A stretch of 64,000 nt of DNA, from the NCBI RefSeq assembly GCF_028641065.1, contig NW_026576860.1, forward strand, positions 1 through 64,000, read 5' to 3'. The position numbers and the translations under genes are program-made. This DNA is from Leucoraja erinacea (Eukaryota). Positions 32,109 to 36,081 of this stretch are shown here, piece after piece (the stretch's first letter is position 1; each line of letters opens with the position of its first letter). The notes below the pieces were generated by a model that saw only the letters and a program-made list of their open reading frames with translations, was not told the origin of the DNA and ran no database searches.

Positions 32109-34766
32109 ATGCGGCGGGCTCCGATTCTGTACGTGAAGGAGATCGCTTATCCGATTATGGCGGCGTTTGGAATCCCCGGCAAGACCGATCATTTTAGATT
32201 TAGGGTTATTATCTTCACGTGTACCGACGTAAAGCGAGGGCTATATTTTGCATGTTATCCAATCTGATCACAGAAACATTTACATACATACAATCAAGTC
32301 AAACGTGTACAATCGGTAGCGAGATTAGATTTGAGGACGTAAAGGCGATTTTATCTGACAATCCTAGATACTTCGCAGGTAAGTGCATAACCGGCGCCAT
32401 GTCCCAGTCATGTTGTTCCATGTGTAGCAAGGAACTGCACATGCTACTTTCGACCGAATATGATCACAAAATGCTGTAGTAACACAGCGGGACAGGCAGC
32501 ATCACTATAGAAAAGGAATGGGTGGCGTTTTGGGTCGAGACCCTTCTTCAGGTTCTGAATCATCTTCGGAAAAAGGGTCTCCACTCGAATCGTCACCCAT
32601 TCCTTCTCTCCAGAGAGTCTGCCTGTACCGCTGAGTTACTCCAGCATTTTGTATCTATCTTCATTGCGTACATATGAGTGAGATGAGATTTAAGTCTCCT
32701 CAGGCTTAAGAACTATTTCGTTTACAAGTTGGCAGACAGACCACGGAGAGCATGAAGAAGTAAACTGAAGAAAGAAAACTTAATTCAATCCCTGATTTCA
32801 ATTTGGAGTTGTCATTTCCGCGGCAGTTAATAACACAACGAAATGATAATTTAATCGGCGAGAAGCAAACGACTTAAGATGGCGACAAGATATATATTTG
32901 TAATGCTGGAAAAAAACACCTAACTGGTCACGCATCATGAGTGTGTAATGGAACAACATCGTTGTTTCAGTTCAGTGGCCATGTTAACACAGGAACAGAC
33001 TCGCGTTACTGGTAGGTAACAGGCCGTTGTAAATTGTGCTGAGTATATTGGCCAGTGGCATGCTCTGGCAAGGTAGAAAAAAAAGAGGTTGGAGACAATG
33101 TGAAGTGATCATGTGGAGGGACTGGTGTTGGATCTGTTTGACTGGGAGTTTGTGGGTCGATGAGGAAGGCATAGACAGTGCAACATGTCTCTATTTTCAT
33201 GATGAGTTTCTCATTGTGCAGCCCATATTATTTCCTTCATGGATCGGTGACGGTGTTATTGAAAGCCTCCCGCCAATAAATATTTTGGTATAATTCACTA
33301 AGTCCTTCAGTTTCGAAAGCCCAGAACATAGAGTAGTACAGCACAAGCACAGGCCCTTCAGCCCAGAATGTGCGTCAAACATAATGCAAATCCCATCTCT
33401 TATCTAGCTGCACATAACCAATATGCCGCCATACACAGCATATCCATATGCTTATCCTTTAAAATCCCACTACCGTATGTGTGGCCTTCACGATCCACGC
33501 ATTGATTTAGTTAAACATTGCGTTACAGCATTGAAACTGGCCCTTCAACCCACCCAGTTCATGCACACCCGTGCGCGCTATTTTAATATAATCCTACTTT
33601 GACATCCCCTCCCTAGAAGATAGGGACGATTTTCATGGAGACCAATACACCAACAAACGGTCAAATTTTTGAGAAGTGGGAGGATGTCTGAGCATCAGGA
33701 GGAAACCCATGTGTCACAGGGAGTTCGTGCAAACTCCACTTAGCGAGCCCCCGAGACCAGGGTCGATTTCTGACGCAGATGCTGTGAGGCAGCGGATCCA
33801 CCGGCTGCGTCTCTAAGCCGGTCTCTCCAATGAGGTTTAATCGCAGCCTTTGTCGTCTCTATTTCGTGTAATATAGAGGACAATAGAGTCGGCGAAGTAC
33901 CTGGTCATCCTCCTCTTCATTCTGTCTTCTGCAGCCAACGTGCTGACGGCTTCGATCTTGTACCGGGGAAAGTGCAGACTCTCCAGAGGTAACATGGTGG
34001 CGATGGCAATTTCCGACATGCTCGTCATCTTCTTTCACGTATTGCTCCAAGGAATCTACGTTCACTACACCCCTGACTCCTACCTGAGCCACACCACGGT
34101 GTGCCCTTCGTACGTATACATGCGCATCCTCACGCTGGACTATTCCGTCTGGTTAACCTTGTCCTTCACCTTTGACCGTTTCGTCAGCATTTGCTGCCCG
34201 AAGCTTAGACTCACGTATTGCACGGATAAGACGGCCGCCGTTGTCATTGGGTTCTTGTTGCCGCTGAGTTGTTTAAAGTACATCCCATTTTACTTCATGT
34301 ACGAGCCACGATTCAACGTGGACAATGTGAACTGGGGTTGCCGGCCCAAACCCGCCTACTTCACTTCCATCTGGAGGGTGGCGTTTTCTTGGATGTTTAA
34401 CATCTCTCTCTACTTACTTAATTTCGTTTTAACGCTGCTTCTGAACGGGCTGACGGTCAGGAACATCATAGCGGCCAGCATGGTCCACCGGCGCTTGAAA
34501 GGACTGGAAGGCAAAGACTTCGAGGTGGAGAATCGGCGCAAACCCATCGTCTTACTCTTCACTGTGTCCGGCACCACCATATTACTGCGGACGACGGGAG
34601 GGTGACTTTCATCTGTACCCGAATTACAATTAATTTTGGCGGCTCTGATCTCACAAGTCCCTCAAACATCTCAAATGAGGTGGGGGTCTTGCTCATTCGG
34701 CTCAGCTCCTGCGCCAACACGTGTATCTACGCAATGACGCAAAGCAGATTCAGGCAGGAACTTTAG
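32109..34766 (+). pseudogene. Two-exon GPR139/GPR142-like class A GPCR, frameshifted (exon 1 32109-32178, exon 2 33935-~34766)
   Basis: Exon 1 MRRAPILYVKEIAYPIMAAFGIP with a GC donor splices in phase 1 to TGCAG|CC AAC (ANVLT...). Motifs AMAISD, FTFDRFVSICC, NRRK.IVLLF. Frameshift at ~34600, then LSSCANTCIYAMTQSRFRQEL*. Confidence 0.9.
32462..32662. mobile_element. Fold-back pair of Penelope-like termini in the GPCR intron
   Basis: 32468-32551 is the approximate reverse complement of 32565-32651. Confidence 0.7.
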
Positions 34767-36081
34767 CAATTTACATTTTGACGGCGGGATACATGGCTCC
34801 ATGTTGTACTCCACTATGCTGCTAAATATATGGTCAATTGTTTTGAAGAATAATCTGTTGCAGTCAGGATCGTCAGTGAAATAATGCAGATAAAGCCCTT
34901 CCACCGAGATCTTGTGTTTATTGCCTCAAATGTTGCAAAGTTACCACAAGCTATCACTTCCATATAACCATATAACAATTACAGCACGGAAACAGGCCAT
35001 TTCGGCCCTACAAGTCCGTGCCGAACATTTTTTTTTACCCTTAGTCCCACCTGCCTGCACTCATACCATAACCCTCCATTCCCTTCTCATCCATATGCCT
35101 ATCCAATTTATTTTTAAATGATACCAATGAACCTGCCTCCACCACTTCCACTGGAAGCTCATTCCACACCGCTACCACTCTCTGAGTAAAGAAGTTCCCC
35201 CTCATATTACCCCTAAACTTCTGTCCCTTAATTCTGAAGTCATGTCCTCTTTTCCTCCCTTGAAAAACGTGGCGAAACATTAGTGAATAACCTGCAGGTT
35301 TTCAACAAAGTAACTGACGATATTCGTAAAGTTCCTGGCGATGTAGGCAAAGACATACCAGGAAAATGTGAGAGTGATTTCAGATAACCAAGATCTTGAA
35401 GAAATACAAAACATAGCTAAAGTTCTCAAAGGTAGTTGTAATGCACAAGATATAACTTTGGTCATTTAATGTCGTATACCTTTATATTATCATGTTAAAC
35501 CATATTTGGTGGTGGAAACAAATGCCTTTTGATGCCTTGTTTTGTCAATAAATGCCTTATTCATGCTTTTTTTGTAATGTTATTATCCCTTTTTGCCGCC
35601 TATTTCAGTGTTTTAGTGACTAAACATCCTGGAACTACGAATCAACAATTTGACAATATCTGCCAATAAAACGTTTTTGACTCAGAAAGTTGTGAATTCT
35701 CTGCCACAGAAGGCAGTGGACGCCAAATCACTGGATGTTTTCAAGAGAGAGTTAGATGTAGCTCGAAGGGTCAAATGGCCTACTCCTACACCTATTTTGC
35801 TGTTCTATGTTTCTATCCCTTCCAAATACCTTGGACCTACCTTTGACCTTCCTCGGGATGCGTATTGCTCTATTCACCTTATTACTCTCTTCCATCCTGC
35901 ACGGACACATGTTTCAGCGTTGGTTGTATTGGACTTTACAACCCAATGGCATTAGTGACATATTTTCCCATTACAGGTAACCCACACCCACTGTTCTCCT
36001 TCGCACTCTCATCTGTCCACCCAGAATCTCAGCCAATTGTCATTTATTTCACACCCTGTCCCTTCCACAGTTTTACACAGA

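What the first reader, a model, noticed from the sequence alone, without database searches (positions are those of the whole stretch)
34755..34785. 17-bp end-to-start overlap at the duplication junction truncates the GPCR: more than one unit length was copied
Seen: TTTAGCAATTTACATTT occurs at 34762-34778 and 45473-45489 (and inverted at 20388-20404). It supplies the TAG that ends the GPCR directly after RFRQEL. The 17-mer appears to belong to the old CR1 at the far end of the arm, not to the GPCR, so it is probably not a TSD. Inference: the duplicated unit reads A...B then A-start again, as expected from a circular or rolling intermediate or a template switch. The unit contains a Helitron, a rolling-circle element. 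Joining GAACTT to the reverse complement of the left flank gives ELQSFYPSLLRIFFILGFHVFNP*, a possible lost C-terminus.
Basis: partly seen in the sequence, partly recalled or inferred. Interest (0 to 1): 0.7.

Follow-up and report, generated by a model that had tools for sequence, protein, structure and literature searches.

The report
DNA-repair scar at inverted duplication junction
A real 17-base stretch copied from the far end of a 10.7-kb inverted duplication sits at the joint that cuts off an already damaged receptor gene in a skate-like genome, and it is most likely an ordinary scar of DNA break repair rather than the trace of a rolling-circle transposon.

Summary
The 17-mer is real (34762, 45473, inverted 20388) and bridged in public short-read contigs (3 of 4 runs, two studies). 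It is not a TSD: 0 of 29 paralogue loci hold it, and it carries two bases private to this locus's arm end.

The proposed lost C-terminus is wrong. Intact relatives end ...RFRQE-SKNG...; the left flank is upstream DNA of the next GPCR, 2.8 kb away in a paralogous cluster.

Paralogues give the ancestral order X-rc(T)-rc(S)-R-Y; the window is X-rc(R)-S-insert-R-Y, a deletion-inversion-duplication. The net insert is 16 nt, resolved by TTT microhomology; its template ends 2 nt from the other breakpoint. This fits a templated insertion from end joining (polymerase-theta type, inferred) or replicative template switching.

The Helitron is genuine, but its 5' end lies 2.5-2.7 kb inside the arms and no breakpoint is a Helitron end, so rolling-circle and circle models fail. 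The GPCR also has a frameshift before the junction, so the TAG is not its working stop.

Side finding: the left arm's Helitron interior was replaced from a younger family copy (0 shared private variants, 33 private to the right arm). Known kind; low interest.

The parts
34760..34778 (+). Junction J2 insert: AC (no sure template) + 14 nt templated from the arm end + TTT microhomology shared with the arm start
45473..45489 (+). Template of the insert; ends 2 nt inside the outer end of the duplicated unit (45491); differs at the same 2 positions from all 5 paralogous copies that span it
20380..20404 (-). Junction J1 (left flank joined to inverted arm at 20385/20386) with the inverted copy of the 17-mer; possible imperfect microhomology of 4-6 nt, judged from one 86% paralogue
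20386..31049 (-). Left arm L, inverted copy of R; foreign outer flank, native inner flank
34776..45491 (+). Right arm R; foreign inner flank, native outer flank
31050..34759 (+). Single-copy inverted segment S with the rest of the hAT element and the GPCR
32109..32178 (+). GPCR exon 1; donor reads GC where 3 of 3 paralogues read GT
33935..34759 (+). GPCR exon 2 (7tm_1; relatives named GPR139-like); 1-base loss near 34599, stop 34603-34605; 3' end cut at 34759
19411..20385 (-). Left flank X: upstream region, exon 1 and intron start of a neighbouring GPCR; not a lost C-terminus
30188..31853 (-). Old high-copy hAT DNA transposon; the inner breakpoint (31046-31049) lies inside its transposase frame, about 860 bases from the nearer end
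23123..29504 (+). Helitron copy B in L: 5' TC end at 23123, 3' end missing; interior replaced from a younger family copy
36667..43016 (-). Helitron copy C in R: 5' TC end at 43016, 3' hairpin and CTAG missing; inserted in a CR1
12680..18611 (+). Helitron copy A, both ends present (A|TC ... hairpin CTAG|T), PIF1 fragment 17281-17688; reference for the family
45243..45398 (-). Weak CR1 3'-end remnant beside the template

Best explanation
The 17-mer is a short patch copied from the outer end of the duplicated arm into the opposite joint of a deletion-inversion-duplication, likely during end-joining repair of broken chromatids by a polymerase-theta-type mechanism. Shown: the two new adjacencies (X|L, S|R), the native ones (L-S through a hAT, R-Y through old sequence), the local origin of the patch, the TTT microhomology, and the 2-nt distance from template to the other breakpoint. 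Inferred: ancestral order X-rc(T)-rc(S)-R-Y; staggered breaks on two chromatids freed rc(S)+R from one and opened a gap in the other. The R-start end first primed on the fragment's R-end (AAA on TTT, 2 nt from the tip), a join that would have made a head-to-tail duplication. It extended 14 nt, let go, gained 2 nt and joined the GPCR end instead. The R-end then joined X, and about 2.8 kb (T) was lost. The Helitron was a passenger; its interior in the left arm was likely replaced separately by gap repair from a younger copy.
For: Patch carries 2 bases found at this locus and in none of 5 paralogous copies. Template ends at 45489, breakpoint at 45491; about 0.002 if placed at random within 20 nt on a 10.7-kb arm. 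Native continuity across 31046 in the hAT family and across 45491 in 5 loci. Order rc(exon 1)-R pieces-Y in 5 of 6 paralogous contig stretches; order S-2.8 kb-rc(X) in C721 at 85-90%; that 2,833-base stretch matches only repeats in the window. Junction in 3 of 4 runs. PMC11541566 (passages): TMEJ inserts of 1-20 bp, priming and resolving microhomologies peaking at 2-3 bp, templates mostly within 20 bp of breakpoints on the retained side. PMC1885836 (passages): staggered chromatid breaks plus end joining give inversions with inverted duplications.
Against: No sequence feature proves which polymerase acted. The template is at the other junction's breakpoint, whereas PMC11541566 searched the same junction's breakpoints. 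The GPCR side has 0-1 nt of microhomology and 2 unexplained bases. The duplication (10.7 kb) far exceeds the 1.9-kb maximum reported for D. yakuba in PMC1885836. [quoted passage not shown] The ancestral order is pieced from two sets of paralogues (75-90% identical), with no unrearranged allele; C936 and C1177 show no X after the gene, and none of C936, C1177, C721 shows the R end in the 50 kb fetched. J1 was not checked in reads. The replaced Helitron tract and 7 clustered private substitutions in L fit replicative copying as well.
Confidence: 0.55

Rival explanations
1. Same rearrangement and same local template, but made in one replicative pass (FoSTeS/MMBIR): the nascent strand switched X to R-end, copied L (perhaps detouring through a young Helitron copy) and S, returned to the R-end for 17 nt, then jumped to R-start.
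For: Net gain of 10.7 kb; several switches with 0-6 nt homology; the left Helitron shares 5 private variants with the right one in its 5' 400 bases but 0 in its 3' 1.66 kb (33 private to the right, 1 to the left); 7 left-private substitutions in 152 bases. PMC5120786 (passages) reports 7- and 15-bp inserts templated from nearby sequence and assigns them to iterative template switching.
Against: Needs the fork to come back to within 2-19 nt of an earlier switch point after 14 kb; a physical broken end explains that more simply. The right arm also took a later 272-base deletion with filler, so later independent repair does occur here.
Confidence: 0.33
2. Helitron rolling-circle read-through, or a circular intermediate of the unit, copied more than one unit length.
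For: The arm holds a true Helitron lacking its 3' terminator, and PMC4778049 (passages) shows that loss of the terminator gives read-through. The order end-then-start is formally that of a circle junction.
Against: PMC4778049 shows the 5' end is essential and capture runs downstream; here the unit extends 2,475-2,737 bases upstream of the 5' TC (43016 against 45491; 23123 against 20386). No CTRR at the S end. A circle-derived copy has permuted order and foreign flanks on both sides (PMC7450558, passages); each arm keeps one native flank.
Confidence: 0.04
3. Assembly artefact: fold-back or fused haplotypes on a small unplaced contig.
Against: J2 is in contigs of two samples from two studies, with the native arm start present beside it in X1. 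The arms differ by 272- and 476-base indels and a replaced interior. An artefactual J1 would not fall 2 nt from the template.
Confidence: 0.04
4. Ordinary target-site duplication of an element inserted in the GPCR's 3' end, or hAT alternative transposition.
For: The 17-mer does flank 34779-45472 as a direct repeat; the inner breakpoint lies in a hAT element.
Against: 0 of 29 paralogue loci hold the 17-mer; all loose ends at 34758-34759 in reads go on as the normal tail; the right flank is not GPCR tail. The hAT break is inside the coding frame, not at a terminal repeat, and this family makes 8-bp duplications.
Confidence: 0.02

Closest known systems
Templated insertions of theta-mediated end joining (PMC11541566, passages read)
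   Same: Short insert, 3-nt microhomology at one side, template within 20 nt of a breakpoint on the retained side.
   Different: Template lies at the other junction of a two-junction event; 2 extra bases; polymerase dependence untested.
Complex rearrangements by FoSTeS/MMBIR with inserts templated from nearby sequence (PMC5120786, passages read)
   Same: Copy gain, deletion, short locally templated insert, repeats at the breakpoints.
   Different: An inherited variant in a fish gene cluster, 0.3% diverged between arms, with later changes in both arms.
Inversions with inverted duplications from staggered breaks (PMC1885836, passages read)
   Same: Inversion with sequence from one breakpoint duplicated in inverted orientation; non-homologous joints.
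   Different: 10.7 kb against at most about 1.9 kb there; comes with a 2.8-kb loss and a templated insert.
Segmental duplications through circular intermediates (PMC7450558, passages read)
   Same: An end-to-start joint with a few bases of microhomology.
   Different: No B-A/D-C permutation, no foreign flanks on both sides, local and inverted rather than distant.
Helitron 3' transduction (Helraiser; PMC4778049, passages read)
   Same: A Helitron without terminator lies in the unit.
   Different: The unit does not start at the 5' TC, does not end at CTRR, and includes 2.5 kb upstream of the element.

Membership tests
Target-site duplication | Repeat derives from the target and is present once in intact alleles | tested here: not met
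   0 of 29 paralogue loci; reads go on GTCGAAG
Helitron transposition or 3' transduction | Moved unit starts at the element's 5' TC | tested here: not met
   5' ends at 23123 and 43016; arm ends at 20386 and 45491
Helitron transposition or 3' transduction | Moved unit ends at CTRR, inserted in A|T | tested here: not met
   S ends ...GCAGGA; neither junction has it
Helitron (the nested element itself) | 5' TC, 3' hairpin and CTAG, A|T target, helicase remnant, many copies | tested here: met
   Copy A has all; 4 of 11 other 3' loci also show hairpin-CTAG|T; PIF1 E 5.6e-25; B and C lack the 3' end
Circular-intermediate duplication | A-B/C-D to B-A/D-C permutation with foreign flanks on both sides | tested here: not met
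   Each arm keeps one native flank
hAT alternative transposition | Breakpoint at a terminal inverted repeat with an 8-bp duplication | tested here: not met
   Break inside the transposase frame, about 860 bases from the end
TMEJ templated insertion | Short insert copied from within about 20 bp of a breakpoint, retained side | tested here: met
   14 templated nt, template 2-19 nt from J1; but the other junction
TMEJ templated insertion | Priming and resolving microhomologies of 2-3 bp | tested here: inconclusive
   TTT on one side; 0-1 nt plus 2 unexplained bases on the other
TMEJ templated insertion | Dependence on polymerase theta | not testable with these tools
   A historical germline event
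Deletion-inversion-duplication | Two new adjacencies explain the change from an ancestral order | tested here: met
   Inferred from paralogous contigs, not from an unrearranged allele
GPR139-like receptor C-terminus (for the reverse complement of 20310-20385) | Similarity to tails of intact relatives | tested here: not met
   DNA: 253-282 of 1000 shuffles score as high. Protein, 49 of 59 relatives: mean 12.6, shuffles 13.1, true tail 27.4

The most novel reading that the evidence does not exclude
The left arm was synthesised in one event that ran through a nearly mutation-free young Helitron, possibly a transposition intermediate, entering at the 56-bp repeat array and leaving by a non-homologous joint. 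An active Helitron family would then both overwrite its resident copies and serve as template in germline rearrangements that reshape a receptor cluster.
Probability: 0.08. Interest if true: 0.55.

Novelty: new member of a known kind. Interest (0 to 1): 0.17.

Why it matters
As read here it matters little: one more complex rearrangement with a templated junction insert, in a fast-turnover receptor cluster, hitting a gene that was probably already dead. It is a clean natural example in a cartilaginous fish of a join tried at one end and finished at another. The absence of the junction from one run (X19) hints at polymorphism. The replaced Helitron interior is the more useful lead: if common, it would make old insertions look young and bias repeat dating.

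Tried and rejected
Lost C-terminus from the left flank: no better than shuffles at DNA or protein level. Predicted empty site: the left-flank end had one long match in the genome search, C721 at 82%, preceded by non-GPCR sequence (7 of 7 candidates scored); no loose end in 4 runs read that way.

CR1 identity of the arm end by tblastn: first run used the wrong strand, the rerun gave E 0.41; only the DNA profile gave weak support.

A second template for AC: 6-mers at 45441 and 45456 match the junction start, too short to count. Hairpins at the breakpoints: only weak folds, 0 to -7.6 kcal/mol, no shuffle control. X19's lack of the junction is a hole in contigs (91% read) and proves nothing. The wide read-laying was swamped by repeats and listed no bridging piece.

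Earlier scan findings: none. A search on GPR139 in cartilaginous fish listed 10 of 2,095 papers, none holding the term. A search on Helitron conversion listed 10 of 98, none holding 'Helitron'. Neither shows absence from print. One review (PMC10962320) was not held. No supplements were read.

Full report
Setting. The window is almost the whole of a 64,246-base contig in a 2.19-Gb assembly. Its GPCR is a 7tm_1 gene whose closest named relatives are skate and ray 'probable G-protein coupled receptor 139' proteins; the genome holds many paralogues on small contigs (42 matches from 40 of 147 candidates scored). Self-comparison shows an inverted repeat, L = 20386-31049 and R = 34776-45491, around a spacer S that ends in the GPCR. 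X is the left flank, Y the right.

Observation. The 17-mer is at the three stated places and extends by no base as a direct repeat; 1.2e-5 copies are expected in the window. It is real DNA: laid on 34690-34830, contigs of X18 and X20 (one sample) bridge it, X1 (another study) covers it with 32 and 27 letters beside, and X19 shows only the intact tail (3 of 4 runs). One holder may be the assembly's own sample. Intact copies leave the window after 34759, and TTT 34776-34778 is also the native arm start, so the net insert is 34760-34775.

Not a TSD, not a lost tail. None of 29 paralogue loci holds the 17-mer; the closest end RFRQESKNGIESFIRFIIKLTKRSRH. The reverse complement of 20310-20387 scores like shuffles against three paralogue tails (253-282 of 1000) and against 49 of 59 protein relatives with a recognisable tail (219 of 300 shuffles as high). 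X is instead the upstream region and exon 1 of a neighbouring GPCR.

The patch came from this locus. The arm end runs on into Y in 5 of 13 other loci found (81-86%). All five differ from the window at positions 7 and 11 of the 17-mer, and the insert has the window's bases. The template ends 2 nt inside the outer breakpoint. A decayed CR1 lies just beside it, with weak support.

Ancestral order. The inner end of L runs on into S inside an old high-copy element that is a hAT: Dimer_Tnp_hAT E 1.4e-6 in 1 of 3 family frames scanned, terminal repeats with 8-bp duplications visible in 2 of 3 copies printed. So L-S and R-Y are native; X|L and S|R are new. Five of 6 paralogous stretches show rc(exon 1), R pieces, Y in that order. 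C721 shows S, 2,833 bases, rc(X), and those bases match only repeats in the window. Hence X-rc(T)-rc(S)-R-Y became X-rc(R)-S-insert-R-Y: about 2.8 kb lost, S inverted, R duplicated. Against: this rests on paralogues; C936 and C1177 show no X behind the gene, and the three closest contigs show no R end in the 50 kb fetched. Outside the Helitron the arms differ by 12 substitutions in 3,997 bases.

Helitron. The nested element is genuine: copy A (12680-18611) has A|TC, hairpin-CTAG|T and a PIF1 remnant, and the family is large. Copies B and C share one 5' insertion site in a CR1 and lack the 3' end. Helitron transposition needs the 5' end and captures downstream sequence (PMC4778049, passages). 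The unit here starts 2.5-2.7 kb upstream of that end and no junction has CTRR. A circle-derived copy should be permuted and have foreign flanks on both sides (PMC7450558, passages); neither arm does. Both ideas fail on defining features.

Mechanism. Shown: breakpoints, local template, TTT microhomology, 2-nt offset. Inferred: the breakpoint at 45491 was used twice, which points to a physical DNA end. The R-start end annealed by AAA/TTT near that tip, copied 14 nt, let go, and joined the GPCR end; the tip then joined X, perhaps by an imperfect 4-6-nt match (one paralogue). This matches the footprint of theta-mediated inserts (PMC11541566, passages) and the staggered chromatid-break model (PMC1885836, passages). 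Serial template switching gives the same product (PMC5120786, passages). I put 0.55 on end joining and 0.33 on replication; together 0.88 for host repair.

The gene. It has a GC donor where 3 of 3 paralogues have GT, and a 1-base loss giving TGA at 34603-34605. At 0.15% divergence per arm only about 1.4 substitutions are expected in 900 bases since the event, so both lesions more likely came first; this is inference. The TAG in the insert is not the working stop.

Side finding. In its 3' 1.66 kb, Helitron B is 99.0-99.1% identical to two distant copies but 97.2% to its twin C (2 of 10 loci skipped as short). Against 9 other copies B and C share 0 private variants, with 33 private to C and 1 to B; in the 5' 400 bases they share 5 (13 others); the hAT control gives 15 shared and 0 different (14 others). 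The switch lies between 23506 and about 23946, over the 56-bp array; the exit at 29504 drops 476 bases. Later gap repair from a young copy is the simplest account; a detour in the same event is not excluded.

Verdict. Observation confirmed; interpretation partly supported. A new instance of a known kind of rearrangement scar; interest 0.17.

Noticed in passing
window 23123-29504: Helitron interior in the left arm replaced by a near-consensus young copy; exit joint at 29504/29505 drops 476 bases and has a small extra patch about 10 nt away.
   Followed up: partly
window 23245-23396: Seven substitutions private to the left arm within 152 bases, far above the 0.15% background; error-prone synthesis or a patch from an unsampled copy.
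   Followed up: partly
window 21358-21629 against 44519-44520: 272 bases present in the left arm and matched in paralogues are missing from the right arm, with a short filler.
   Followed up: partly
window 24925-25820 against 40370-41282: A stretch of the Helitron interior that does not align between the arms; G-rich repeats in the right arm resemble the long array at 10541-12559.
   Followed up: no
window 23105-23122 and 18578-18611: The CR1 target just 5' of Helitrons B and C begins like the family's own 3' hairpin arm (about 10 bases); other 5' flanks printed do not, so probably chance.
   Followed up: partly
window 19925-19990 (-): Exon 1 of a neighbouring GPCR whose exon 2 is not found in the window by tblastn, so more loss or rearrangement lies to the left.
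   Followed up: partly
window 3298-4003, 7925-9416: Another local inverted and duplicated arrangement at about 97% identity.
   Followed up: no
window 54442-58258: LTR-retroelement frames with protease, reverse transcriptase and RNase H domains, flanked by a 204-base direct repeat at 54251 and 58723 of 95.6% identity.
   Followed up: no
window 61411-61865 (-): Short exon-like frame that recalls an immunoglobulin C1 (MHC-type) domain; resemblance from memory, not tested.
   Followed up: no
run X19, window 34760-34789: No cover of the junction while intact tails are present: possible presence-absence polymorphism.
   Followed up: no
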